From Ignavibacteriales bacterium (GTDB taxonomy: Bacteria; Bacteroidota; Ignavibacteria; Ignavibacteriales; Ignavibacteriaceae), in contig CP065001.1 in assembly GCA_016700155.1 (NCBI GenBank), forward strand, positions 2,746,659 through 2,810,658: a stretch of DNA of 64,000 bases, written 5' to 3'. The first letter of the stretch is position 1, and each line of letters starts with the position of its first letter. The position numbers and the translations under genes are program-made. The notes under the pieces were generated by a model. The model was not told where the DNA came from. It did no database searches and saw only the letters and a program-made list of their open reading frames with translations. This document shows positions 23,272-42,395 of the stretch, piece after piece.

Positions 23272-23402
23272 TATTCCCCACTGCTACCCAAAATAATGGA
23301 TTTTTTTCTGAAATGTCAAGAAAAATCTATAGGTATTCCCACAATTTTTTTGAGCCGACGGGATTAAGAAGTCTGATTAGTAAGTGGATTTAAAATGGAA
23401 AG

Positions 23403-23475
23403 AGCCAACTGCCGGAATCGAACCGGCGACCTACTCATTACGAATGAGTTGCTCTACCAGCTGAGCTAAGTTGGC
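23403..23475 (-). tRNA. tRNA-Thr (anticodon CGT)
   Basis: Hand-folded as a 73-nt cloverleaf: acceptor GCCAACT/AGTTGGC, D-arm GCTC..GAGC, anticodon stem ACTCA/TGAGT with loop TTCGTAA, T-arm GCCGG-TTCGATT-CCGGC, discriminator U. No CCA is encoded. Confidence 0.85.
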
Positions 23476-32996: not shown

Positions 32997-33368
32997 GAAC
33001 ACTTAACATATCGATTCCCTCAGAGCAATTCCGTTTTGAGGGAATAGATTTTACTGATGATGGATATTGATGCTGGATACTGGATACTGGATGCTTGCTC
33101 TCTGATGCCGGATAATTCCTAAATCACAAATCGTTGATCTTCATTCGTTAATCATTCCTAAGTAATCCTATTCGTCTTTACCTCTGTATTCTGCTGCGTA
33201 ATAGTACACTGAACCGCATTCAATCAACAATTCTTTATGATGATTATGATTTTGACAGATAAACCCACAAAAAAACTACTGACTATTGTTTGAGTTCTTC
33301 TGTTTGAACTATTTGTCTATTTATCAGCTACAGGTGGAATCGTTAATCATATATGATAATGGTTCAGT

Positions 33369-33655
33369 TTGAGTGCATTTCTCATCACGTTTAGCATATT
33401 CCCGTTCACATTGAGTACATTCCCGTTCTCGTTTAGTACATTTCTGTTCACGTTAAGTACATTTCTGTTCACGTTGAGTACATTTCTGTTCACGTTTAAT
33501 ACATCCCGATTCACATTAAGTACATTTCAGTTCACATTAAGTACATTTCAGTTCACATTAAGTACACTTCCGTTCAAGTTAAGTACATTTCTATTCACGT
33601 TAAGTACATTTCCGTTCACATTAAGTACATTCCTGTTCACGTTTAGTACATTCCT
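33369..33655. repeat. Tandem array of about 13.7 copies of a 21-bp unit (consensus ttaagtacatttctgttcacg)
   Basis: Copies were read directly from the sequence. Because the 21-nt period is a multiple of three, an artefactual 106-aa ORF (FTLSTFL heptads, TTG start) runs through the array. Confidence 0.9.
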
Positions 33656-33705
33656 AAGAGAATTTTATTTGTTTTTGTTAAATAAATGAGGAAAAAGGTT
33701 GAGTT

Positions 33706-34101
33706 ATGTTAAAGTTTAATTTCAAGTCTGTGTTCGCTGCACGCGGGATTCAGAGTCCAACAGGGTTTTTAAGAAGGGCTGGGTTTTCTCCGCATACTGC
33801 TTCTTATATAGCAACGGGTAAGGTTGAGAAGTTGAATTTAAAGTTGTTAGAGAGGTTGTGCATTTTACTTAATTGCACTCCGCACGATTTGCTTGAGTGG
33901 GTTCCGGACACTAAGCTGGCTGACCCAGGCAGGTTTGAGTTGAGCAAGTTGGCTGGTGAGAGGAAAGTACATTCGCTGCAGGATGATTTGAGCGAACTGA
34001 CGCTGGGGAAGGTGGAGGAGGTGAAGAGGTTTATTGAGGAGAAGAGGAAAGAAACAACCTCACCCCCGCCCCCTCTCCTTGGTAAGGAGAGGGGTGAGTG
34101 A
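33706..34101 (+). CDS. XRE/Cro-C1-type helix-turn-helix DNA-binding protein
   Basis: '…ATGKVEKLNLKLLERLCILLNCTPHDLLEW' is an HTH_26-like motif. The last ~15 codons ('TTSPPPPLLGKERGE') are encoded by a GC-rich hairpin, so the true C-terminus may be altered. Confidence 0.65.
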   Translation: MLKFNFKSVFAARGIQSPTGFLRRAGFSPHTASYIATGKVEKLNLKLLERLCILLNCTPHDLLEWVPDTKLADPGRFELSKLAGERKVHSLQDDLSELTLGKVEEVKRFIEEKRKETTSPPPPLLGKERGE

Positions 34102-34204
34102 TGAGAAGATTTTTTTATTTAAATTTACGGCGGTAATTGTTGTTCACCGGGACGCCTTGAACAACATCTGCAGAATTACCGACCCCCAGCCCGGTGACGT
34201 TCCT

Positions 34205-34231
34205 GCCCGGCGTCCCGGGCGTTTTTATTTT
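34205..34231 (+). terminator. Rho-independent terminator (GCCCGG-cgtc-CCGGGC plus TTTTTATTTT)
   Basis: A 6-bp GC stem with a T-tract closes a roughly 130-nt GC-rich, hairpin-dense segment (34060-34235) downstream of the HTH gene. Confidence 0.65.
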
Positions 34232-34451
34232 AAATATTGAAAGTACTTATGAATTAATATAAGTTGGAATTGATTTTATACGCCCCTTTAGAATCCTTTA
34301 AATCCCGGGGCAGTGCTTTGAGGCAGTTGTACAGGTTTGGCTTGTATGTGGAAAGCGGATCGGGAGAAAAAATAGTTAAGAGTTTAAAATTATGAGTTAT
34401 GAATTGAAGGACAATTGGAACATATATCCACCTAAGGCGGACAAGTATGCA

Positions 34452-34487
34452 GCCGCGTGCGGGTCTATGTTCTTTATTTAACTAATT
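34452..34487 (+). promoter_or_regulatory. Copy 1 of the conserved island intergenic motif (CCGCgtGCGG palindrome, then GTTCTTTAtTTAAcTAAtt)
   Basis: The sequence is shared with copies at 35461..35504 and 36390..36447. It lies 40 nt upstream of the 34528 CDS. Confidence 0.5.
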
Positions 34488-34527
34488 CACGCAGGTTAAT
34501 TATAAGTTATATTACTAAGAGGAATCA

Positions 34528-35397
34528 ATGCAAGAAGAAAAAATTAAAAAAGGTTTTACGATAAACCAAAAATGGATATTCGCAATCGTATTCAATATCC
34601 TTTTATTGTTGATTGGATACAAAATAGTATTTGCAGATTATCTTATTGATTTAACAAAATTTACATTTTCAGATTTTCTTGCACTATTTCTAGCGCTTTT
34701 CTCAATTGCTATTTCAGTAGCCTTCTATTTTAAAGCAACAGATTCTAGCAGTCGCTTTTATGATAATACATATAAATTCACAAAAGACATTGCAGAATTA
34801 CTGGTTAAAATCGAAAGTAGTTTTGGGGAAAGATTAAAACATCTTGATGAGGGATATACAAGTATTAGGGATAAGTTTGATAAAATACCAAGTTCGACTA
34901 TTACTAAAGAAAAGGTTCAAACTCAAGAAGAGTTAGATGAGGTAAAAAAAGAATTTGAAAAGAAATTGAAAGAGAAAGAGACATTATTAAATGATACTCT
35001 ACAAAAAGCACATTCAAATGAAAAGGATAGAAAGTTTATAATAAATCAACTTAACAAAAAAGAAGTTGAGCTACAGCTTGAGAAAGAGAAAGTTGAATTA
35101 TTAGAAGAAAAATTGATGAGTTATAATAATTTGGAAAGAGAAAGAAGCAGAAAGTTTATTCCACCATCAACGAAAATGTTATGGATGCACTCGATTTTAA
35201 TCCCCTTAGGAGAAAAATTTATTAAAAATGCTTCTTATACTGAATTAAATAAAAAATTTCAAGAAAATTTAAAAAACTTTTCAGAGAAAGCACTTCTAGA
35301 TGTATACAGATATGGAATGATGGATAAAGATAAAAATTTAACCGAAGAAGGTTTTCATTATTTAAAAGAACTAGCAAATAATACTGGCGTAATATAA
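34528..35397 (+). CDS. Hypothetical membrane protein: two N-terminal TM helices and a long cytoplasmic coiled coil
   Basis: Hydrophobic segments at about aa 15-35 and 48-68, then a K/E-rich heptad region ('LEKEKVELLEEKL'). No catalytic motif was recognised. Confidence 0.5.
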   Translation: MQEEKIKKGFTINQKWIFAIVFNILLLLIGYKIVFADYLIDLTKFTFSDFLALFLALFSIAISVAFYFKATDSSSRFYDNTYKFTKDIAELLVKIESSFGERLKHLDEGYTSIRDKFDKIPSSTITKEKVQTQEELDEVKKEFEKKLKEKETLLNDTLQKAHSNEKDRKFIINQLNKKEVELQLEKEKVELLEEKLMSYNNLERERSRKFIPPSTKMLWMHSILIPLGEKFIKNASYTELNKKFQENLKNFSEKALLDVYRYGMMDKDKNLTEEGFHYLKELANNTGVI

Positions 35398-35460
35398 CAA
35401 GTGCTTCAACCCGACAGCGTTTTCGCATTTGGTTTTTTTATAATTTTAGCGTTTAGTGCT

Positions 35461-35504
35461 CCGTTTCGGGTAACTTGTTCAAAGTGTTCTTACTAAATTA
35501 ATTT
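35461..35504 (+). promoter_or_regulatory. Copy 2 of the conserved island intergenic motif (…gtttcgggtaACTTGTTCAAAGTgTTCTTactAAATTAAttt)
   Basis: Shares the 'ttcgggt…acttgttcaaagt…tcttta.t.aattaa' core with copy 3. A perfect 13-bp palindrome follows at 35509..35546. Confidence 0.5.
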
Positions 35505-35508
35505 ACTT

Positions 35509-35546
35509 GCAAACCGTGCTTGCAAAGAAAGATAAGCACGGTTTGC
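35509..35546. repeat. Perfect 13-bp inverted repeat (GCAAACCGTGCTT … AAGCACGGTTTGC) with a 12-nt loop
   Basis: Read directly. It lies in the intergenic region between island genes 34528 and 35640. Confidence 0.85.
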
Positions 35547-35639
35547 TAAATCATCGGCAGTTGTAGTTTTATTTGGCAGTCTTGTTCTGGGCTGCGGGTT
35601 AAGCACAAAGCCGTTAGCAAGCTTAAAGAGCATATATAA

Positions 35640-36335
35640 ATGGAAACTATAATTGCAGTTACAATAGCAGTATTTGGTTGGTTGACAAATCATTTCCTTA
35701 CTTTGAGAGCCCAAAGGAAATCCTTTATGGATCATTTGATCAATAATGCAAGAATAGAAATATGTAATGGAATCCGTGACTATATAGATTGGTTGAATAA
35801 ACTTGTTCAACATAATGCTACAATAAGCTTAATTATTGATTTCCCCGGTCAAATTGATAAACTTGAAAAGCCCTATAAATTTTATATTATCGAAATTAGA
35901 AAAACACTTAAAGAAGTATTTCTTGATCCAAGATTTATAACATTACTAAGTGAATATGAAACACTATTTCCTGAAACAAAACAAATAAACTCATATATAC
36001 ATAGAAAGCATATTGCATTATACATAAATATTGAAAGTGCAATTATGTTTGAAAACGAAAATGAGATTGACAAAAATAATTTTTTAAAGGCCATAAAAAA
36101 ATTAGATTTTAATCTTGTTGGAGCTCAACAAGCAGCAGTTAGAGATTTATTAATTGTTTTACAAAACTTAACCTTAGGAAAAATTAAAAAGTATAAAAAA
36201 GAATTTTCTGCATATCCAATGACAAAGCATCCAAGAATATTGTTGGATAAAAATCGGAATATCAAAATAGTTCAATATGGCGAAAAAGATTATCCAATTA
36301 ATGCTGAATTAGATAAATTATTAGAAAATAAATAG
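35640..36335 (+). CDS. Hypothetical protein with an N-terminal TM anchor
   Basis: 'ETIIAVTIAVFGWLTNHFL' hydrophobic helix followed by a roughly 200-aa soluble domain with no known motif. Confidence 0.45.
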   Translation: METIIAVTIAVFGWLTNHFLTLRAQRKSFMDHLINNARIEICNGIRDYIDWLNKLVQHNATISLIIDFPGQIDKLEKPYKFYIIEIRKTLKEVFLDPRFITLLSEYETLFPETKQINSYIHRKHIALYINIESAIMFENENEIDKNNFLKAIKKLDFNLVGAQQAAVRDLLIVLQNLTLGKIKKYKKEFSAYPMTKHPRILLDKNRNIKIVQYGEKDYPINAELDKLLENK

Positions 36336-36389
36336 CTTGCTAACCTGTTGCTCAACGCCGACCGCTTCGCTTTAGCGGTGGTTTTCAAG

Positions 36390-36447
36390 TTTTCGGGTTG
36401 GTTCTTTTTAGCTGGTTACTTGTTCAAAGTTCTTTAGTTAATTAACC
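36390..36447 (+). promoter_or_regulatory. Copy 3 of the conserved island intergenic motif (ttttcgggt…ttACTTGTTCAAAGTTCTTTAgtTAATTAAcc), preceded by the ACCGC…GCGGT palindrome at 36361-36379
   Basis: Aligned by eye to copies 1 and 2. It lies 95 nt upstream of the 36542 CDS. Confidence 0.5.
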
Positions 36448-36541
36448 GTTTTTTTAATTTTAATTGTGGTGCTTTTCGGCTGCTTTCAAGTTATGGGCGG
36501 CGCGTTAGCAGCCACGCCGTTATAAATAAAAGGATTTGTAA

Positions 36542-37918
36542 ATGGAGTTTAAATATCCTAAGGACTTAATAAAAATTTTAAAAGAAAGATGGTTTAATTT
36601 TCAAAAAACGTTAGATACACCTTCGAAGAAGTTTAAAAAACAAAAGGATAAAGATTTTCCTAATGATAGAAATTTAAAAACGATATTGAATGTCATTTAC
36701 CATGCGTCATTTTTAACCGAGGAAAGTCGAAGGATTGCTTATAGAATAGGTTATGTGTCACCAGAAAAATGTGAACAAAAAATATCTGATATTAATATGA
36801 TTAGTGAGCCAATAAAATTATTAATTCCAGTTCCATTCACAGTTCAAGAGATATTAAAAATAGCACCTTCTGTTAATCCAAATCAGTCTCTAGTATTAAT
36901 TTCTGAAGGGGATAAAATTCAAACTAACTTAGAAAATAGTGAATTGTATATATGGGGAATACTTGATTTAGGTTCTGAATGGTGGGAAGTTGTCTCTGGT
37001 TTATCATCTGCTGCGATGTGTCCGCCAAATATTTTGACTGTAAGTTCCACTTCACCTGGAAATATTACGGTCACTACAATTGGTTCTGTATTGTTTCGGC
37101 TTTCAGCTGGTAAAATCTTGGGAACACCTTTAGAAGATTTAAGTTTGGGCTTAATTGGTGGATTTTTAGATAATAGCGCGAAGGCATTATATAGTGATTC
37201 GGTAAAAAGAATTAAAGTGGAAAAATATGATGAAAGAGAGGATTCAGATAAATACCCATACCAGACTTATTATCAAACATTCAACAGTATTCTGAATTTT
37301 GCAAAAGATAAATTACATGGAGCCACATTTATCGTAATTCCAGACGAAATAAATTACAATGATACTCGTTTAACAGATCGAATTAATATAAAATATATTT
37401 TCGATAAAGATATCATATGGGATAAGTTAATAGACTTATGTGAAGCCAATTATTTTTATTACAAGACATTATTTTATGATAAATTCAAAATGATTCTTGA
37501 TAAAAGGAAAGCATCACCGAAAGAATTAAAGGATCTAATTAAATGGGAAAATTCCAAACAGCAGCTTGAAAAAAAAATAATTGATATTGAAAAATTTATT
37601 GCTCAGTTATCTTGTGTTGATGGCGCTGTTGTTCTTACATCTAAATTAAGAATAATTGGTTATGGAGGTGAAATACTAGCTCAATCTTCTAGTTTGACCT
37701 CAATAAAATCTGCAAATGATCCGGATGCCAAATCTTATATAGAAGTAGATATAAATAATTTTGGAACTCGACATCGTTCAGCATTCAGAATGTGTTCAAG
37801 TTTTGATAATTGTGTCGCTTTTGTAATTTCCCAAGATGGAGGTATCAAGGCAGTTAAACGAAATGGACCCAATTTAATTTTGTGGAATAATGTTAATCTT
37901 GGAGAGACTAGTATTTAG
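36542..37918 (+). CDS. Diadenylate-cyclase (DAC/DisA_N)-like domain protein with an uncharacterised ~250-aa N-terminal domain
   Basis: The C-terminal half carries the three DAC hallmark motifs. They read 'HGATFIVIPDE' (cf. RHGALIVIE), 'DGAVVLTSKLRIIGYGG' (cf. HDGAVIxxxxRIxAAGC) and 'GTRHRSAF…VAFVISQDGG' (cf. GTRHRAA…VSEETG). An insertion of about 80 aa separates the first two motifs. The N-terminal region has no recognisable motif. Confidence 0.6.
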   Translation: MEFKYPKDLIKILKERWFNFQKTLDTPSKKFKKQKDKDFPNDRNLKTILNVIYHASFLTEESRRIAYRIGYVSPEKCEQKISDINMISEPIKLLIPVPFTVQEILKIAPSVNPNQSLVLISEGDKIQTNLENSELYIWGILDLGSEWWEVVSGLSSAAMCPPNILTVSSTSPGNITVTTIGSVLFRLSAGKILGTPLEDLSLGLIGGFLDNSAKALYSDSVKRIKVEKYDEREDSDKYPYQTYYQTFNSILNFAKDKLHGATFIVIPDEINYNDTRLTDRINIKYIFDKDIIWDKLIDLCEANYFYYKTLFYDKFKMILDKRKASPKELKDLIKWENSKQQLEKKIIDIEKFIAQLSCVDGAVVLTSKLRIIGYGGEILAQSSSLTSIKSANDPDAKSYIEVDINNFGTRHRSAFRMCSSFDNCVAFVISQDGGIKAVKRNGPNLILWNNVNLGETSI

Positions 37919-38026
37919 GTATCACCTCTTTAATCCGTCAAGACCGGACAAGTAAGTAAAGAGTCCATAAAGTGGCAAGCAATGGTACAAACAGTAAAAG
38001 TATATCAGTCCGAATAATTTAATTTT

Positions 38027-39148
38027 ATGAGCAAATTATTTTTAACTCTTGTTGTATTAGTGATTGTTACATCGCTCTCAGTTCCTTCATGCACATTTTC
38101 AAAGATAATATGGCATAACTTTTCTTCTATTGACGATTATAAAATTTTTGATAATGCTGAGCTAAGTCCTTCCAGCAAACCTTTTCATTTTTATGAATCT
38201 GATAAAAGTGAATTGATAACTGAATTAATTAAAAACGAAATATTAAAAACTGATATCGACAGCCTGCTGAGTTCAAACTCAACCACGGCTTTTTTAGTGA
38301 TAAAGAACGACACTATTATTTTTGAAAAATATTATAATGAATACAATGACAGTTCTCTTTCTTTATCTTTTTCAATGGCAAAGTCTTTTTTGTCAATGTT
38401 AACCGGCTGTGCAATTGACGACGGTTATATTAAATCAGTTGAACAGCCTGTTACAGATTTTGTCCCTGAACTTACTTCAAAGGGATTTGACAAAGTAAAG
38501 ATCAAACACCTGTTACAAATGACATCAGGAATGGACTATAGTGAGTCGGATAATCCTTTCGGGATTCATCCTCACTTTTACTATGGTTCTGATCTTGAGA
38601 AAAAACTACTCTCGCTTGAACTGGCAACAGAACCGGGAAAGGAGTTCCGTTATAAAAGCGGAGAAGCGCAGTTACTGGGGCTGGTACTAAGCAGAGCACT
38701 GAAATCAAAATCCATTACCGAATACACACAACAAAGGATATGGAACCCTCTTGGAATGGAGTACGGCGGGTTGTGGAGTGTTGATGATGAAGAGAATAAA
38801 CTGGAAAAAGTTTTCTGCTGCCTGAGTGCAAGAGCTAAGGACTTCGCTAAAATCGGCAGGCTTTATTTATTTAATGGCAACTGGAATGGAACCCAGATAG
38901 TATCACAAAGCTGGGTTGAGCAATCAACCAAGATAGATACCAGTGAAGGCAGTGCCTGGTTCTACCAGTATATGTGGTGGTTAGTATCAGCGGATGAAAA
39001 AGATTTTATGGCAGTGGGTCATCTTGGACAGTATATATTTGTTTCACCTGAAAAGAATTTGGTGATTGTGAGACTCGGTGAGAGTGAAGGAAGTTTGACA
39101 CGGAAAGATTGGACCAGGATTTTTAATGCGTTAAAAAAAGTCATCTGA
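38027..39148 (+). CDS. Serine hydrolase of the beta-lactamase / PBP4-like esterase family, secreted or lipoprotein
   Basis: Signal peptide ('…SLSVPSC') and the S-x-x-K motif 'SMAKSF', in a protein of about 370 aa. Confidence 0.65.
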   Translation: MSKLFLTLVVLVIVTSLSVPSCTFSKIIWHNFSSIDDYKIFDNAELSPSSKPFHFYESDKSELITELIKNEILKTDIDSLLSSNSTTAFLVIKNDTIIFEKYYNEYNDSSLSLSFSMAKSFLSMLTGCAIDDGYIKSVEQPVTDFVPELTSKGFDKVKIKHLLQMTSGMDYSESDNPFGIHPHFYYGSDLEKKLLSLELATEPGKEFRYKSGEAQLLGLVLSRALKSKSITEYTQQRIWNPLGMEYGGLWSVDDEENKLEKVFCCLSARAKDFAKIGRLYLFNGNWNGTQIVSQSWVEQSTKIDTSEGSAWFYQYMWWLVSADEKDFMAVGHLGQYIFVSPEKNLVIVRLGESEGSLTRKDWTRIFNALKKVI

Positions 39149-39222
39149 CAAAACGGAAACATCAGAAAATAAATTTTATTATGGATTGATCTATTCGATG
39201 ACGGATGAGTGTTGATTTACTA

Positions 39223-39250
39223 TTCTGGTCGGGATTAATCCCGACCAGAA
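39223..39250. repeat. 13-bp perfect palindrome TTCTGGTCGGGAT-ta-ATCCCGACCAGAA between convergent genes
   Basis: Read directly. The hairpin is GC-rich and lacks a flanking U-tract on either strand. Confidence 0.8.
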
Positions 39251-39266
39251 CCCACAAACAAAAATA

Positions 39267-41348
39267 TCAGTTTACACTCTGCAATAAATTTATATTCTTT
39301 ACTTCACCGGCAATTAAAAGTGTGTCATCAATTTTTATAACGTAGTCAGGATTAGGAATTGCGTTAATCCTTTCACCTTTCTTCTCCTTGGTTTTGATCG
39401 AGAGAACATCAACCCCATATTCCTTACGGATATTTAATTGGCGGATCGATCTGCCGATAAAAGATGCGGGAGGTTTTATTTCAACTATTGAATACCCTTC
39501 CATAAACCTGTGGTGATGTTCATCATCCTTCATACTTATGCTGCTGGCAAGTGTTGAGGTGATGTCGCGGTTTTCAATTTCTTTCTGGTATGCGTCCTGT
39601 ATATCCTTACGCCAAAGCATACCGAGTATTTTTTTGCTTCCGGGTGATTCAACTACCGGGATTCCTTCGTAGTCATGTTTTTTCATTTTGTCCAAAGCTG
39701 CCTGGCAGTTCTCATCAGGAAAGGCTGTGTTAAAAACGGGGTCGGCAAAATCACCGGCGATGAGTAAATCCTTCAATGATTCTTTTTCAAAAAGATGTTC
39801 TTTGATATCATAGATAGATATCATTCCTTTTATTTCATCTTCTGAATTCAAGACGGGAAATTCAGGACTTTTACTTCTCAACACCCTGTTAACAACAAGG
39901 TTGAAATTTTCGTGTTCTCTTATCACATCAAATTCTTTTGAAAAAACATCACGCACATAAATAGATTCCATCACATTTATTTCAGCGCCTTCTCTTATCC
40001 CTATATTCTTCAGCAATAGTTTAAGAGTATAAATTGATTCGCGCGAAAGTTTGGATGAAACAAGTGTACTGATGATACATGTCACCATCAAAGGAAGGAT
40101 TATCCTGTAATCATTTGTAAGTTCAAACACGATGATGATGGCGGTTAACGGGGCTCTTGCGGTTCCGGCGACAAGTCCGCCCATTGCAACAACAGCGTAA
40201 GCGCCTGCGGGCGCTGTAATGTCGGGGAACAGATTATTGGACAGAACACCAAACGCATAGCCAAGCATCGCGCCCATATAAAGTGAAGGTGCAAATATAC
40301 CTCCAGATCCTCCTGAGCCAAGTGTAATAGACGTGGCGATGATCTTAACAAAAATTAATATGAATGCCGTATGCCACAACAGGTTTCCGTAAAAAGCATC
40401 ATCCATAGTTTCATAACCAACGCCCATAATCTGAGGATAGAGTAAAGCGATTAACCCGATTGCCAAACCGCCAAGTACAGGTTTTAAGTATTCCTGCATC
40501 TGAATTTTGTTGTCAAAAAAATCCTCAAAGAAATAAAGCACTTTTATAAAGAGGTAGGAAACCAAACCACTTGCGAGTCCCAGCACTAAGTAAATAATTA
40601 TTTCATAAGGCGAATAAAGATGAAACTGCGGAACAAGGAACGCAGCAAAGTTTCCTTCAAAGGTGTGTGAGATTAGTGTGGCCACAACCGCGGAAATAAT
40701 TATCGGCGCGAATTGAACAACGGCATAATCCATCAGTATAATTTCAACAGCGAATAACGCTCCGGCTATCGGCGCATTGAATGCAGCCGCAATACCGGCA
40801 GCGGCACCGCATCCGACAAATGTTTTTAATCTTTTACTTGATATGCGAAGGAACTGTCCGACTAATGAACCAAGGCTTGAACCGATCTGAATTATCGGTC
40901 CTTCCCTGCCAACCGATCCGCCGGTTCCGATTGTAATTGCAGATGATATCGTTTTAATGAATGCAACTCTTCCGCGGATCTTTCCGCCTTTCAAAAGAAT
41001 TGCCTGCATTACTTCGGGTACTCCGTGACCTTTTGCTTCAGGAGCAAAAAAATGTATCATCGGTCCGACAATTAATCCGCCGATCATAGGAACAAGAAGG
41101 ATTATATACCACGCGGAGTTTGTAACATCCTGGAGAAAATTTCCTTCACCGGGGAATGCTATATCCGCAACGAAGTGGATCATCAAGCGGATAAGCACTG
41201 CGGCAAATCCGGCAAGCACACCAATGATAACTGAAATACTTATCATAAATGTGTATTCAGTCATCTTCAGTTTTTCTATTGAATCAGCAACTGAGCGGGA
41301 GAACTTTGTGTATAACTTTGTAAGACTTTTCATAAACAAAAAAAACAA
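39267..41348 (-). CDS. ClC-family chloride channel/antiporter with a C-terminal CBS pair and an RCK_C (TrkA-C) domain
   Basis: 'GSVGREGP' and 'GGSGGIFAPSL' selectivity-filter motifs. The 693-aa protein has cytoplasmic regulatory domains. Confidence 0.8.
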   Translation of the reverse strand: MFFLFMKSLTKLYTKFSRSVADSIEKLKMTEYTFMISISVIIGVLAGFAAVLIRLMIHFVADIAFPGEGNFLQDVTNSAWYIILLVPMIGGLIVGPMIHFFAPEAKGHGVPEVMQAILLKGGKIRGRVAFIKTISSAITIGTGGSVGREGPIIQIGSSLGSLVGQFLRISSKRLKTFVGCGAAAGIAAAFNAPIAGALFAVEIILMDYAVVQFAPIIISAVVATLISHTFEGNFAAFLVPQFHLYSPYEIIIYLVLGLASGLVSYLFIKVLYFFEDFFDNKIQMQEYLKPVLGGLAIGLIALLYPQIMGVGYETMDDAFYGNLLWHTAFILIFVKIIATSITLGSGGSGGIFAPSLYMGAMLGYAFGVLSNNLFPDITAPAGAYAVVAMGGLVAGTARAPLTAIIIVFELTNDYRIILPLMVTCIISTLVSSKLSRESIYTLKLLLKNIGIREGAEINVMESIYVRDVFSKEFDVIREHENFNLVVNRVLRSKSPEFPVLNSEDEIKGMISIYDIKEHLFEKESLKDLLIAGDFADPVFNTAFPDENCQAALDKMKKHDYEGIPVVESPGSKKILGMLWRKDIQDAYQKEIENRDITSTLASSISMKDDEHHHRFMEGYSIVEIKPPASFIGRSIRQLNIRKEYGVDVLSIKTKEKKGERINAIPNPDYVIKIDDTLLIAGEVKNINLLQSVN

Positions 41349-41472
41349 GCAGTCCGAAGTAAAGAAGATTAAATTAATCCGCCCCGAACATTTTGTTCAT
41401 CGTAATCAATATAAATTTTTCACGTGTAAACTTAAGATTATAATAAGTGCACGGCAAGTTCAGATGATTTTT

Positions 41473-42324
41473 TTATGAACCAAATTTTGTTATGCCGCAT
41501 AACTTCAGACTCTCATTCCACAGCCTGTCAGTTGTATTCTGGTCATAACTTGACATTGAAGTCTCTTCAACTTTTTTATTGGCAAAATATTTTCCGGATA
41601 TATTTTTCACTTCATCTGAAGTCGCAAGATATAAAGGAGTTTCCGCTCCTTTCTCAGGATTATCATTTTTAAGTTTGTGAATGAATCCGAGTGCTCGCGG
41701 TTTTCCCTGGAAGTCACTTAGCAGGTTTGTTGCAACGACTCCGGGACTGAGAGCGTTTACTGTTATTCCTGTCCCGTTCAATTCTTTTGCAAGTTTGTAA
41801 GTGAATAAAATTTGCGAAAGTTTTGTCATACTATAAACGCGGAGGTATTGATAGTCTTTTTCGGAGTGCAGATCATTAAAATTTATTCCCACTCCCCTGT
41901 GCGCGCCTGATGAAACATTTATTATTCTTGATGGTGATGCTTTCAATAATAAGTCCATCAGCAAGTGGATAAGCAAAACATTTGACAGATAGTTTGCAGC
42001 AAACTGGTATTCATAGCCATCAACTGTCACCTGGCGCTGATGAAGAATAATTCCAGCATTATTTATAAGAACATCTATCTTGCTGAACTTATTATGTATC
42101 TCTTCAGAAAGTTTTTTTATTTCATTCATTGAAGAAAGGTCAGCGACGAGCAGATGGACCAATTCATTTTTAGTTTGTTTGATGATCTGCCGTTTAGCTT
42201 CTTCGCCTTTTTCTTTATTGCGGCAAATCATTATTACTTCAGCGCCAAGTGATGCTAATCCTGCGGCAGTTGCTTTTCCAATTCCGGTGTTTGCGCCGGT
42301 TACTATACAAATTTTATTTTTCAT
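41473..42324 (-). CDS. Short-chain dehydrogenase/reductase (SDR)
   Basis: 'CIVTGANTGIGKATA' Rossmann motif and a Yx3K active site. Confidence 0.8.
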   Translation of the reverse strand: MKNKICIVTGANTGIGKATAAGLASLGAEVIMICRNKEKGEEAKRQIIKQTKNELVHLLVADLSSMNEIKKLSEEIHNKFSKIDVLINNAGIILHQRQVTVDGYEYQFAANYLSNVLLIHLLMDLLLKASPSRIINVSSGAHRGVGINFNDLHSEKDYQYLRVYSMTKLSQILFTYKLAKELNGTGITVNALSPGVVATNLLSDFQGKPRALGFIHKLKNDNPEKGAETPLYLATSDEVKNISGKYFANKKVEETSMSSYDQNTTDRLWNESLKLCGITKFGS

Positions 42325-42395
42325 TTAATTTTTTTGTTTTTAAAAGATGACATCTTTCAACAAAGATGTCATCTTTTTTTTATTTGTAACATAGA

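What the first reader, a model, noticed from the sequence alone, without database searches (positions are those of the whole stretch)
33000..39260. Roughly 6-kb accessory island between flotillin and ClC-channel genes: repeat array, HTH gene, then three cassette-like hypothetical genes
The flanking genes (CorA, flotillin, ClC channel, SDR) look like core genome. The region between them has a distinct organisation. It begins with a 21-bp tandem array at 33369-33655. An XRE-type HTH gene follows, then a GC-rich hairpin-dense segment at 34060-34235 that is atypical in this roughly 33% GC genome. Three AT-rich hypothetical genes come next (a 2TM coiled-coil protein, a 1TM protein and the DAC-like protein), each preceded by a related intergenic motif. 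The island ends with a secreted beta-lactamase-family hydrolase and a GC-rich palindrome at 39223-39250. No integrase or transposase is visible, so the mobilisation mechanism is unknown. The nearest tRNA (Thr-CGU at 23.4 kb) is separated from it by core genes. The co-orientation, the shared upstream motifs and the regulator suggest a co-regulated module.
Basis: partly seen in the sequence, partly recalled or inferred. Interest (0 to 1): 0.75.

Follow-up and report, generated by a model that had tools for sequence, protein, structure and literature searches.

The report
Integron cassettes without an integrase
The three "cassette-like" genes between the flotillin and chloride-channel genes are real integron gene cassettes with unusually long recombination sites and no integrase nearby, a known kind of mobile gene array, lying beside an unrelated multi-copy regulator-plus-repeat module.

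Summary
The stretch between flotillin and the ClC gene varies between genomes. The closest relative keeps CorA-flotillin-[gap]-ClC-SDR but has three unrelated genes in a 2.4-kb gap.

The island is a composite of three parts.

1. **33055-34352: a multi-copy module.** It holds a 21-bp x13 array, an XRE/HTH_26 gene and conserved non-coding blocks. At least two further copies occur in the same sample. Homologues down to 57% identity also carry about 21-bp arrays upstream.

2. **34506-37918: three integron cassettes.** Two complete attC sites lie at 35392-35619 and 36338-36525. They belong to a family found on low-GC, mostly unclassified metagenome contigs:
   - 134 sites in 61 loci.
   - All co-oriented in the 42 loci holding two or more.
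   - 92% of arm positions paired, 13 pairs with compensatory changes.
   - In 27 of 34 cassettes the first 10 nt match their own attC's 5' end.
   - On one contig the family sits beside a bona fide integron integrase.

   The window has no integrase, so this is a CALIN.

3. **A compositionally native serine hydrolase gene.**

The "co-regulated module" reading is not supported. Integrons are already reported in Ignavibacteriae. The attC length (188 and 228 nt) and the DACNV-DAC cassette are the less ordinary details.

The parts
33055..33097 (+). Short TGGATAC / 14-bp repeats at the left edge of the multi-copy HTH module
   Evidence: TRF gives period 7 and 14. A similar TGCTGGATAC repeat lies upstream of the second copy, L205 338-394.
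33372..33652 (+). 21-bp tandem array, 13.4 copies, unit AGTACATTTCTGTTCACGTTA. The AGTACATT box is conserved and the rest drifts. Non-coding, iteron-like.
   Evidence: TRF score 324, 81% matches. Equivalent arrays of about 21-bp period precede the HTH homologues in L205, L206, L207 and L208. By my reading of the sequence, all three + strand frames of the L205 array contain stops, so a protein is unlikely to be encoded on that strand.
33706..34101 (+). XRE-type HTH gene (131 aa). Its C-terminal 13 aa are read out of the conserved hairpin, probably because of a deletion relative to the 118-aa paralogue.
   Evidence: Pfam HTH_26, E 1.6e-12. The family has only 19 clusters, the named ones Ignavibacteriales or Ignavibacteriaceae, including two paralogues on the same 4.6-Mb contig.
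34059..34098 (+). Conserved hairpin CCTCACCCCCGCCCCCTCTCCTT-GGT-AAGGAGAGGGGTGAG, part of the multi-copy module
   Evidence: Nearly invariant in the window, L205 and L206. It is part of the fold with z = -5.65.
34118..34231 (+). GC-rich insertion of about 110 bp. It has two hairpins, the second terminator-like, and is bounded by similar A/T-rich direct repeats. It is absent from the other two copies of the module.
   Evidence: Gap in L205 and L206 in alignment A5. Terminator-like site at 34204-34221 plus a T run. Fold. 51% GC.
34300..34352 (+). Conserved non-coding block AATCCCGGGGCAGTGCTTTGAGGCAGTTGTACAGGTTTGGCTTGTATGTGG, the right end of the multi-copy module as far as it can be followed
   Evidence: 94% identical to L206 4047-4097. 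The independent short-read contig L213 starts at 34343, where the repeat ends.
34506..34515 (+). 5' junction of cassette 1: G|TTATATTAC, complementary to GTAATATAAC at 35389-35398
   Evidence: Perfect 10-bp inverted repeat flanking ORF1. It is the second longest among 48 ORFs tested. No recognisable attC or attI lies upstream.
34507..35613 (+). Cassette 1: ORF1 (34528-35397, 289 aa, 2 TM segments plus coiled coil, no family match) and attC1
   Evidence: No Pfam, NCBIfam, PADLOC or PHROG hit. 27.1% GC.
35392..35619 (+). attC1, 228 nt. R'' is ATATAAC and overlaps the ORF1 stop codon. The L'' arm is GTGCTT[C]AACCCG[A]CAGC, the L' arm is GCTGCGGGTTAAGCAC, and R' is GTTAGCA. It belongs to the long class with an internal hairpin at about 35503-35547.
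   Evidence: An HMM built from 26 sites of other contigs scores E 1.2e-42. It is near-identical to the attC of L095.
35614..36519 (+). Cassette 2: ORF2 (35640-36335, 231 aa, N-terminal TM segment, small uncharacterised family) and attC2
   Evidence: An 11-bp inverted repeat, GTTAGCAAGCT at 35613-35623 and AGCTTGCTAAC at 36334-36344, is the longest in the window. The family has 147 representatives among 1.84 billion proteins. 26.3% GC.
36338..36525 (+). attC2, 188 nt. R'' is TGCTAAC and R' is GTTATAA. Short class.
   Evidence: Non-window HMM, E 6.6e-25. It is in alignments A2 and A4.
36520..37918 (+). Cassette 3: the DACNV-DAC gene (36542-37918, 458 aa). The 3' boundary is not defined. No attC follows, only an R''-like GGTATCAC at 37921-37928.
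   Evidence: Pfam DACNV at 1.3e-15 and DAC at 27.7 bits against a cut-off of 27. DGA and GTRHRS are invariant in 23 homologues. The C-terminal fold matches CdaA/DisA. Homologues in L081 and L082 are bounded by attC sites of the same family. No attC hit lies after 37918.
38027..39148 (+). Class C beta-lactamase-related serine hydrolase with an N-terminal signal or lipoprotein peptide. Native composition. Not shown to be a cassette.
   Evidence: Pfam Beta-lactamase, E 3.9e-31. The best solved relative is 6-aminohexanoate-dimer hydrolase. 37.3% GC, z = +0.17. Absent from L001.
39223..39250 (.). Perfect 28-nt palindrome TTCTGGTCGGGATTAATCCCGACCAGAA between the convergent hydrolase and ClC genes
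   Evidence: Self-match. Single copy in the window and absent from 209 loci. No T run follows on either strand, by reading the sequence.

Best explanation
Window 34506-37918 is a short array of three integron gene cassettes with no integron integrase nearby. This is the arrangement called a CALIN, a cluster of attC sites lacking an integron integrase.

Each cassette is one promoterless-looking ORF followed by an attC site. The two complete attC sites are imperfect palindromes. An outer R''/R' pair (..TAAC / GTTA..) and an inner 16-bp L helix are interrupted by two conserved bulged bases on the R''-L'' arm. Between the arms lies a very long variable middle of about 131 and 172 nt.

**Inferred, by analogy with studied integrons.** The bottom strand folds. 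An integron integrase encoded elsewhere in this genome, or supplied by a transient element, cuts between G and TT of R'. Cassettes are excised as circles and re-inserted one at a time. That would explain why neighbouring cassettes are unrelated in content.

**Shown.** The array sits in a variable spot between two conserved genes. To its left is an unrelated multi-copy module: a 21-bp iteron-like array, an XRE HTH gene and conserved non-coding blocks. To its right is a compositionally native serine hydrolase gene.

**Inferred.** The HTH protein probably binds the AGTACATT boxes of its own array, one box per two helical turns. The purpose of that complex is unknown.
For: 1. **Flanking repeats.** ORF1 and ORF2 carry the two longest flanking inverted repeats of 48 ORFs tested (10 and 11 bp). 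Both start with GTTA, 22-27 nt before the ATG, and both end with TAAC at the stop codon.
2. **Same element elsewhere.** A scan for the right-arm pattern found the same element on many low-GC metagenome contigs.
3. **Clean HMM.** An HMM built from 26 sites outside the window hits the window only at 35393-35617 (E 1.2e-42) and 36340-36524 (E 6.6e-25).
4. **Array behaviour.** That HMM finds 134 sites in 61 loci. In all 42 loci with two or more sites, the sites are on one strand.
5. **Cassette logic.**
   - In 27 of 34 cassettes, the first 10 nt after G|TT match at 9 or 10 of 10 positions, as a reverse complement, the 5' end of that cassette's own attC.
   - The next cassette's start matches mostly at only 6-7 of 10.
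   - This is what crossover at G|TT predicts, giving chimeric sites (PMC4889954).
6. **Structure.**
   - On 20 sites, 92% of cells pair, against 30-41% when the partners are slid.
   - 13 pairs show changes on both sides, and 0 of 500 shuffles reach the covariation score.
   - RNAalifold on 11 full-length sites independently returns the same arms, with 11 of 21 pairs compensatory.
7. **Integrase link.**
   - L176 carries this attC family next to a protein scoring 421.9 bits on TIGR02249 "integron integrase" (cut-off 265). NCBI names it integron integrase [Ignavibacteriaceae].
   - The first cassette of L176 shows the same GTTAGCTTAC / GTAAGCTAAC logic.
8. **DAC as a cassette.** Homologues of 81% and 52% identity are attC-bounded in L081 and L082 with different neighbours.
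9. **No integrase here.** None is found in the 64-kb window.
10. **Variable site.** L001 comparison.
11. **Not an assembly artefact.** An independent short-read assembly reproduces 34343-35539 and 35510-42335 at 100% identity.
12. **Prior reports.** Integrons are already reported in Chlorobi and Ignavibacteriae (PMC9024848).
Against: - The middle part of these sites (about 131 and 172 nt) is longer than the 20-100 nt reported for known attC sites (PMC4889954).
- Single-sequence minimum-free-energy folds of the whole sites do not recover the long-range arms.
- The array has no recognisable attC or attI at its head.
- No attC follows the third cassette. Cassette 3 is therefore called mainly from its 5' junction and from its homologues.
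- No recombination was observed. Whether the source genome has an integron integrase is unknown. None of the best 120 relatives of the L176 integrase lies on the 4.6-Mb source contig.
- I could not run IntegronFinder's own attC model.
Confidence: 0.88

Rival explanations
1. The island is one co-regulated functional module, for example a signalling or defence operon. The HTH protein would regulate two membrane proteins and the DAC enzyme, and the shared intergenic motifs would be operators or attenuators.
For: The five genes are co-oriented. An HTH gene with a large array of putative binding sites lies upstream. DAC enzymes paired with membrane effectors exist in defence systems (10.64898/2026.08.10.743927).
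Against: - DAC homologues occur without any ORF1, ORF2 or HTH homologue nearby.
- The HTH module occurs in other places without cassettes or attC sites.
- The 21-bp box AGTACATT does not occur in the intergenic elements, by reading the sequence.
- A terminator-like site and strong hairpins separate the HTH gene from ORF1.
- The intergenic elements behave as recombination sites.
Confidence: 0.04
2. The intergenic elements are ordinary repeated extragenic palindromes or miniature transposable elements scattered in Ignavibacteria genomes, unrelated to integrons. Their position between genes would be incidental.
For: They are abundant in metagenomes. They are long and contain nested hairpins. Short-read assemblies break inside them.
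Against: - They occur only twice in 64 kb, and both copies are in the island.
- They form strictly co-oriented arrays at cassette-sized spacing.
- Their ends are complementary to the start of the gene unit upstream of them, not to a fixed terminal repeat.
- They carry the AAC/GTT triplets.
- On L176 they sit next to an integron integrase.
Confidence: 0.04
3. The whole 6.3 kb is a single genomic island acquired in one event by another mechanism, such as a phage or ICE remnant or homologous replacement of a flanked variable segment. The cassettes would be mere passengers.
For: Homology with L001 stops exactly at the two flanking stop codons. This fits replacement of the whole segment by recombination in the conserved flanks. 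No mobility gene lies in the island.
Against: - The parts differ strongly in composition: 48%, 26-30% and 37% GC.
- The left part is a repeat with other copies in the same sample.
- There is no integrase, transposase, tRNA target or terminal repeat around the island.
- This reading does not conflict with the cassettes being integron cassettes. It concerns only how the present combination arrived.
Confidence: 0.15

Closest known systems
CALIN (cluster of attC sites lacking an integron integrase) and sedentary chromosomal integron cassette arrays, as defined by IntegronFinder (Cury et al. 2016, PMC4889954; Neron et al. 2022, PMC9024848)
   Same: - Two or more co-oriented attC sites less than 4 kb apart, with no intI nearby.
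- One ORF per cassette, on the attC strand.
- Conserved AAC/GTT triplets, R and L boxes, and bulged bases.
- Chimeric sites.
- Cassettes of unknown function with low GC.
   Different: - The middle part of the sites is 131-172 nt, against 20-100 nt reported. Total length is 188 and 228 nt.
- The spacer between the R and L boxes is asymmetric: 2 nt on the left and 6 nt (AACGCC) on the right.
- The last cassette has no attC.
Complete integrons of Ignavibacteria (for example locus L176; integrase cluster P0140, named 'integron integrase [Ignavibacteriaceae bacterium]')
   Same: Same attC family: E 2.5e-38 and 4.6e-32 in L176. Same junction logic.
   Different: L176 has integrase genes. One is degraded and lies on the cassette strand at the head of the array. 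One is intact and convergent at the far end. It also has a non-attC head site. The window has neither an integrase nor a recognisable head site.
Vibrio cholerae repeats (VCR) of the superintegron
   Same: A lineage-specific, relatively homogeneous and long attC type that is repeated many times and breaks short-read assemblies. This comparison rests on my own knowledge.
   Different: VCRs are about 120-130 nt, from my own knowledge. These sites are 188-235 nt and fall into two length classes that differ by a nested hairpin.
Defence-associated DAC enzymes: DS-2C (DACNG+DACNH+DAC) and Panoptoo PanS (minimal DAC with an S2TM-beta effector) (bioRxiv 10.64898/2026.08.10.743927)
   Same: The cassette-3 protein has a DAC domain with intact DGA and RHR motifs and an N-terminal putative sensor region. 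A homologue lies in a defence island next to Thoeris and AbiTii genes.
   Different: - The N-terminal domain is DACNV, not DACNG or DACNH.
- It is about 440-480 aa.
- No conserved partner gene was seen in the six contexts examined.
- It is not in PADLOC 2.0.
- No activity or defence test exists.
Plasmid iterons and centromere-like repeat arrays bound by small DNA-binding proteins
   Same: Ten to fourteen direct repeats with a period of two helical turns lie immediately upstream of the gene for a small DNA-binding protein. Each paralogue has its own diverged array.
   Different: No replication initiator, partition ATPase or plasmid context. The copies are chromosomal. The protein is an XRE-type HTH of about 118 aa. 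Binding is not shown.

Membership tests
Integron attC site / gene cassette | Conserved triplets AAC (end of R'') and GTT (start of R') | tested here: met
   Columns 4-7 and 72-75 (TAAC / GTTA) are invariant in 20 sites, including both window sites.
Integron attC site / gene cassette | Imperfect palindrome with R box and L box pairing, supported across sites | tested here: met
   92% of cells pair, against 30-41% when slid. 13 pairs show double-sided changes. An independent RNAalifold prediction gives the same arms.
Integron attC site / gene cassette | Extrahelical (bulged) bases on the R''-L'' arm | tested here: met
   Two unpaired columns, C at column 16 and A at column 23, are conserved at 90% or more on the left arm and have no counterpart on the right arm. 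On the bottom strand these read G and T. Whether their order matches canonical sites was not checked against a reference.
Integron attC site / gene cassette | Chimeric sites: a cassette's 5' end is complementary to the R'' of its own attC, showing crossover at G|TT | tested here: met
   Window cassette 1 matches at 10 of 10 and cassette 2 at 11 of 11. Across the family, 27 of 34 cassettes match at 9 or more of 10. The control with the next cassette's start gives mostly 6-7 of 10.
Integron attC site / gene cassette | Variable terminal structure of 20-100 nt (typical, per PMC4889954) | tested here: not met
   About 131 nt in attC2 and 172 nt in attC1. The family has two length classes, about 188 nt and 209-235 nt in total. 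This is a typical range, not a mechanistic requirement.
Integron attC site / gene cassette | The attC family is found next to an integron integrase (tyrosine recombinase with the IntI-specific domain) | tested here: met
   L176 80-1069 scores 421.9 bits on TIGR02249 (cut-off 265). attC hits lie 1.3-4 kb away on the same contig. Only one clear case is in hand. The recombinase in L129 scores below the cut-off (202.5 bits).
Integron attC site / gene cassette | Detected by IntegronFinder's attC covariance model | not testable with these tools
   That model is not in Rfam, and no Rfam family hits the island. I recall the program's default upper attC size as 200 nt, which would exclude the 228-nt class. 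This should be checked.
Integron attC site / gene cassette | Integrase-mediated excision and integration | not testable with these tools
   Needs an experiment.
CALIN | At least 2 attC sites clustered on one strand within 4 kb, with no integron integrase in the cluster | tested here: met
   Two sites lie 906 bp apart on the + strand. There is no IntI-like sequence in the window, which extends 34 kb upstream and 26 kb downstream.
Diadenylate cyclase (DAC / DisA_N) domain protein | DAC fold with DGA and RHR active-site motifs | tested here: met
   Pfam DAC scores 27.7 bits against a cut-off of 27. D360-G-A and G408-T-R-H-R-S are invariant in 23 homologues. Foldseek gives probability 1.0 to CdaA and DisA, with TM-score about 0.6 relative to the target. 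The product was not tested.
Known defence DAC systems (DS-2C, Panoptoo) | DACNG+DACNH N-terminal domains inside a CBASS-like operon, or a minimal DAC with an S2TM-beta partner | tested here: not met
   The N-terminal domain is DACNV. There is no conserved partner. PADLOC gives no hit.
XRE/Cro-C1 type HTH regulator | HTH_26 domain | tested here: met
   E 1.6e-12, 47.9 bits against a cut-off of 22.

The most novel reading that the evidence does not exclude
The DACNV-DAC protein of cassette 3 may represent a third class of defence-associated diadenylate-cyclase enzyme. It would be a self-contained sensor-cyclase that spreads as a single-gene integron cassette. It would act through a nucleotide signal on host targets rather than on a dedicated partner effector.

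- The catalytic motifs are invariant across phyla.
- One homologue lies between Thoeris, AbiTii and other conflict-system genes.
- Another homologue lies next to a prophage-type integrase.
- The two classes described in the 2026 preprint do not include it.

A less likely novel reading concerns the multi-copy unit of HTH gene plus 21-bp array. It could be a new kind of chromosomal element that marks or organises variable loci.
Probability: 0.25. Interest if true: 0.6.

Novelty: new member of a known kind. Interest (0 to 1): 0.35.

Why it matters
It turns an unexplained "island" into a defined mechanism, integron cassette capture. It also gives exact cassette boundaries in a poorly studied lineage.

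**Practical value**
- It documents an abundant attC type of 188-235 nt whose longer class may fall outside the size limit I recall for standard detection. Cassette content in such low-GC environmental bacteria may therefore be under-counted.
- It supplies a clean set of sites (28 full-length, 134 hits) from which a lineage-specific model could be built.
- It flags a widespread, catalytically intact DACNV-DAC protein as a mobile cassette with defence-island neighbours. This makes it a reasonable candidate for testing.

None of this changes what is known about how integrons work.

Tried and rejected
- **Rfam.** At gathering and relaxed thresholds it gives only tRNA-Thr and chance-level hits in the island.
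- **Whole-site folds.** The fold of attC1 is only weakly better than shuffled (z -2.43) and that of attC2 is not (z -0.34). Neither recovers the long-range arms. The structure became visible only from comparison of many sites.
- **My first boundary guess.** I placed the crossover at the inner GTTAAGC / GCTTCAAC. I dropped it when the outer GTTA..TAAC repeats proved complementary to each cassette's own end.
- **attC or attI upstream of cassette 1.**
  - The resemblance of 34462-34512 to a right arm, seen by eye, is not detected by any HMM.
  - The 12-nt match to the L176 head region is not significant, E 0.096.
- **attC after the DAC gene.**
  - No HMM hit.
  - The expected R'' (TTATTTATAAC) has only chance-level matches. 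These include one inside the hydrolase start (38036) and a 9-mer inside the ClC gene (39333).
- **Integrase remnant.** No trace in the island or window.
- **Integrase elsewhere in the source genome.** None of the best 120 homologues is on the 4,601,368-bp contig. This is not proof of absence.
- **HTH module as the head of cassette arrays.** Rejected. None of the 61 attC-bearing loci contains it, and L207 and L208 carry it without attC sites.
- **Other libraries.** PADLOC, PHROGs and NCBIfam give nothing for ORF1, ORF2 or DAC. Viral contigs hold no HTH relative. The phage collection holds no DAC relative.
- **Exact-match look-up of the flotillin protein.** Nothing found.
- **Related loci L002, L003 and L054.** They lack the ClC gene within 10 kb, so they say nothing about an empty site.

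Full report
**Observation**

- The flanking genes are CorA, an SPFH/Band_7 flotillin, a ClC channel with CBS and TrkA_C domains, and an SDR.
- TRF reports a 21-bp array at 33372-33652, 13.4 copies, 81% matches.
- The next gene is an HTH_26 (Cro/C1-type) protein.
- 34060-34235 is 51% GC and folds into three strong hairpins, z = -5.65. One is followed by a T run.
- Three low-GC ORFs follow. ORF1 (27.1% GC) and ORF2 (26.3%) are the two lowest of 49 genes. The DAC gene is 30.4%. The 44 non-island genes average 36.8% with sd 2.4.
- The third ORF matches DACNV and DAC.
- The last gene is a class C beta-lactamase-related serine hydrolase.
- 39223-39250 is a perfect, single-copy 28-nt palindrome.
- The only tRNA is Thr(CGU) at 23402-23475.
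- No integrase is detectable in the window.

Corrections: window GC is 36.4%, not about 33%. The HTH gene is the highest-GC gene of the window, at 48%.

**Is it an island?**

The closest genome locus is L001, a MAG filed as Bacteroidetes. Its flotillin is 92% identical and its ClC 90% identical at the amino-acid level. L001 keeps CorA-flotillin on one side and ClC-SDR plus four further genes on the other.

Between the flotillin and ClC stop codons L001 has 2.37 kb with three unrelated + strand ORFs of 322, 194 and 125 aa. None of the window's five island genes is there. Nucleotide homology stops exactly at the two stop codons.

The stretch is therefore a variable spot between conserved genes. 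I found no empty site. The more distant relatives L002, L003 and L054 have no ClC gene within 10 kb.

**The cassettes**

Reading the spacers after ORF1 and ORF2 showed that they are related over their whole length of about 200 bp. Each ORF is bracketed by a perfect inverted repeat that begins GTTA and ends TAAC:
- ORF1: GTTATATTAC (34506-34515) and GTAATATAAC (35389-35398, overlapping the stop codon).
- ORF2: GTTAGCAAGCT (35613-35623) and AGCTTGCTAAC (36334-36344).

I applied the same test to 48 long ORFs of the window. These are the two longest flanking repeats. The others are 9 bp or shorter and of low complexity.

This is the logic of integron cassettes. The start of a cassette is the 3' part of a recombined R' site, and it is complementary to the R'' of the cassette's own attC.

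**The family**

A pattern taken from the right arm (GCSSGTTANNNNNNAMGCCGTTA) was scanned against metagenome contigs.
- About half of the hits were chance matches on high-GC contigs.
- The other half lay on low-GC contigs (0.27-0.37) and shared an extended consensus with the window's sites.

Results from these loci:
- Profile searches found co-oriented arrays at cassette-like spacing in many of them.
- An HMM built from 26 full-length sites, none from the window, finds 134 sites in 61 loci. In all 42 loci with two or more sites, the sites share one strand.
- In the window it hits only 35393-35617 (E 1.2e-42) and 36340-36524 (E 6.6e-25).
- I tested 34 cassettes delimited by consecutive sites.
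  - In 27, the first 10 nt are found as a reverse complement at 9 or 10 of 10 positions, 181-229 nt before the next R'.
  - The start of the following cassette matches mostly at 6-7 of 10.
- Site lengths fall into two classes, about 188 nt and 209-235 nt. The longer class carries an extra internal hairpin.
- The window has one site of each class: attC2 at 188 nt and attC1 at 228 nt.

**Structure**

I joined the two arms of 20 sites and counted pairs for the following structure: R''(7) - 2 nt - 6 bp - bulged C - 6 bp - bulged A - 4 bp, against 4 + 6 + 6 bp - 6 nt (AACGCC) - R'(7).
- 92% of cells form standard pairs, against 30-41% for slid partners.
- 13 pairs have changes on both sides.
- No shuffle out of 500 reaches the covariation score.
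- The outer three positions of the R pair are paired in only about 60-75% of sites. That is expected, because those bases of R' come from the next cassette.
- RNAalifold, given 11 full-length 188-nt sites with no hint, returned the same arms with 11 of 21 pairs compensatory.
- Single-sequence folds did not recover the arms.

The published description of attC sites lists R and L boxes, an unpaired central spacer, extrahelical bases, conserved AAC/GTT triplets and a variable terminal structure of 20-100 nt (PMC4889954). All of these are met except the last, which here is about 131 and 172 nt.

**Link to integrases**

A tblastn with the class 1 integrase sequence, recalled from memory and used only as a probe, pointed to L176.
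- L176 80-1069 scores 421.9 bits on NCBIfam TIGR02249 "integron integrase" (cut-off 265).
- The identical protein is named integron integrase [Ignavibacteriaceae bacterium] in NCBI.
- L176 carries two sites of the family (E 2.5e-38 and 4.6e-32).
- A second, degraded intI lies at the head of the L176 array, on the cassette strand.
- Its first cassette starts at a non-attC site with GTTAGCTTAC, matched by GTAAGCTAAC in its own attC.

Integrons have been reported before in Chlorobi and Ignavibacteriae (PMC9024848).

The window itself has no integrase, no integrase remnant and no significant similarity to the L176 head region. By the usual definition, at least two clustered attC sites without intI, it is a CALIN.

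**Edges of the array**
- Upstream of cassette 1 there is only the junction GTTATATTAC. No HMM detects an attC or attI there.
- After the DAC gene no attC follows. The sequence TAGGTATCAC resembles the TAGGTATAAC that ends the DAC cassette of L082, but nothing beyond that is recognisable.
- The DAC gene is nevertheless a cassette elsewhere.
  - In L082 (52% identity) it is bounded by GTTATACCTA and TAGGTATAAC, with full attC sites on both sides.
  - In L081 (81% identity) it has attC hits on both sides.
- No homologue of ORF1 or ORF2 appears in any fetched locus.

**What the cassettes encode**
- **ORF1** (289 aa, two TM segments, coiled coil) has no match in Pfam, NCBIfam, PADLOC or PHROGs.
- **ORF2** (231 aa, one TM segment) also has no family match. 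It belongs to a small uncharacterised family of 147 representatives among 1.84 billion proteins.
- **The DAC protein**
  - It belongs to a family spread over several phyla.
  - The DGA and GTRHRS motifs are invariant in 23 homologues.
  - An AlphaFold model (pLDDT 87) matches CdaA and DisA over the C-terminal 210 or so residues. Nothing solved matches the N-terminal half.
  - In Dethiobacter the homologue lies between ThsA/ThsB (Thoeris), AbiTii, a DNA methylase, and HD-CE and ORC-CDC6-like genes.
  - In Bacillus cereus it lies next to a phage-type integrase.
  - It is absent from the phage collection and rare on plasmids.
  - A 2026 preprint describes two defence-associated DAC classes: DS-2C with DACNG and DACNH domains, and the minimal Panoptoo PanS with an S2TM-beta partner. 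The DACNV class is not one of them.
  - A defence role is therefore a reasonable but untested guess. Integron cassettes are known to carry phage-defence genes (bioRxiv 10.1101/2024.07.02.601719).

**The left part of the island**

The HTH protein family is tiny, with 19 clusters. The few clusters that carry a name are Ignavibacteriales or Ignavibacteriaceae, and the family includes two paralogues on the same 4.6-Mb contig.

Contigs from the same sample, L205 and L206, carry copies of the whole unit. The shared parts are:
- the TGGATAC repeats, present in L205 but not in L206;
- the box AGGTGGAATCG;
- a private, diverged 21-bp array of about 9-10 units with the conserved box AGTACATT;
- the HTH gene;
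- the hairpin CCTCACCCC..GGAGAGGGG;
- the block AATCCCGGGGCAG..GTATGTGG.

More distant homologues of 57-62% identity, in L207 and L208, also have arrays of about 21-bp period just upstream, each with different unit sequences. None of these other copies is next to attC sites, and none of the attC-bearing loci contains the unit.

The GC-rich stretch at 34118-34231 is an insertion private to the window's copy.

The unit is thus a separate multi-copy module that happens to abut the cassette array. My best guess is that the HTH protein binds one box per two helical turns, as plasmid initiators do on iterons or centromere-binding proteins do on their repeats. Nothing here tests this, and no replication or partition gene accompanies the module.

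**The right part**

The serine hydrolase gene has native composition (37.3% GC, z = +0.17) and no attC. It is absent from L001. I cannot say whether it is an old resident or arrived with the array.

**Assembly check**

Two contigs from an independent short-read assembly of sample SRR11674018 are 100% identical to window 34343-35539 and 35510-42335. They break at the end of the multi-copy module and inside the attC1 hairpin. That is where repeats would be expected to break an assembly.

**Verdict**

The island is real and the cassette intuition was right. The mechanism is a known one, and the regulator is not part of it. I rate this a new member of a known kind. Three details deserve a note: the very long attC type, the DACNV-DAC cassette, and the unexplained module of HTH gene plus array.

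Noticed in passing
window 33055-34352; L205 338-1417; L206 3457-4097; L207 9700-10354; L208 9700-10372: A small XRE HTH gene is always preceded by its own array of about 21-bp period with 9-14 units. In the three closest copies it is followed by two near-invariant non-coding blocks. There are at least three copies in one sample, in different genomic neighbourhoods. The function is unknown. The arrangement is iteron- or centromere-like, but no replication or partition genes accompany it.
   Followed up: partly
window 34118-34231: A GC-rich insertion of about 110 bp with two hairpins, one terminator-like. It is present only in the window's copy of the HTH module. Similar A/T-rich direct repeats bound it (TTTTTTATTTAAAT and TTTTTATTTTAAAT), as a small mobile insertion would leave. 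No second copy exists in the window.
   Followed up: partly
window 35396-35482 (inside attC1); also L195, L095, L178: The left arm of the attC (AACAAG..AACCCGA) can also pair with a conserved central segment (TCGGGTAACTTGTTC). The first 90 nt or so therefore look like a smaller attC nested in the large one, and the minimum-free-energy fold uses this pairing. The pairing seems to co-vary, for example AAGCCGA with TCGGCT in L195. I did not test it formally.
   Followed up: no
L176 80-1069 (+) and 5902-6906 (-): This metagenome integron has two integron-integrase genes. A degraded one lies at the head of the array on the same strand as the cassettes. An intact one lies at the far end, convergent with them, next to a truncated attC left arm.
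   Followed up: partly
L082 12467-12710 and 13989-14025: Inside this array two spacers lack the usual attC and share the motif ATCTTTAATCCGCC. A related motif, CTCTTTAATCCGTC, follows the window's DAC gene at 37929-37942, and ACCTCTTTAAT occurs in L001 near 4914. One of the L082 spacers ends in a collapsed site, ACATAAC-AAGCC-GTTATGC, with R'' and R' only 5 nt apart.
   Followed up: no
L210 1693-10191 (Dethiobacter alkaliphilus contig): The DACNV-DAC homologue lies in a dense defence island: ThsA_Macro, ThsB_TIR, AbiTii, DAC, a DNA methylase, HD-CE and an ORC-CDC6-like gene.
   Followed up: partly
L001 2982-5347: The sister genome fills the same flotillin-ClC gap with three different + strand ORFs: a 322-aa secreted protein, a 194-aa two-TM protein and a 125-aa protein. 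No attC of this family is detected there. GTTAGGC lies 33 nt before the first ATG, and a CTAAC..GTTAG pair lies between the last two ORFs. These may be decayed cassette junctions.
   Followed up: partly
window 33706-34101 compared with L205 745-1296: The window's HTH protein is 131 aa, against 117-119 aa for most of the family. Compared with L205, about 160-170 bp between the gene and the conserved hairpin are missing, so the reading frame runs on into the hairpin and ends ..TTSPPPPLLGKERGE.
   Followed up: partly
window 39333-39341: The 9-mer TTTATAACG inside the 3' end of the ClC gene equals the R'' expected for cassette 3. It lies in conserved coding sequence (PDYVIKIDD, also in L001), so it is most likely chance.
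   Followed up: partly
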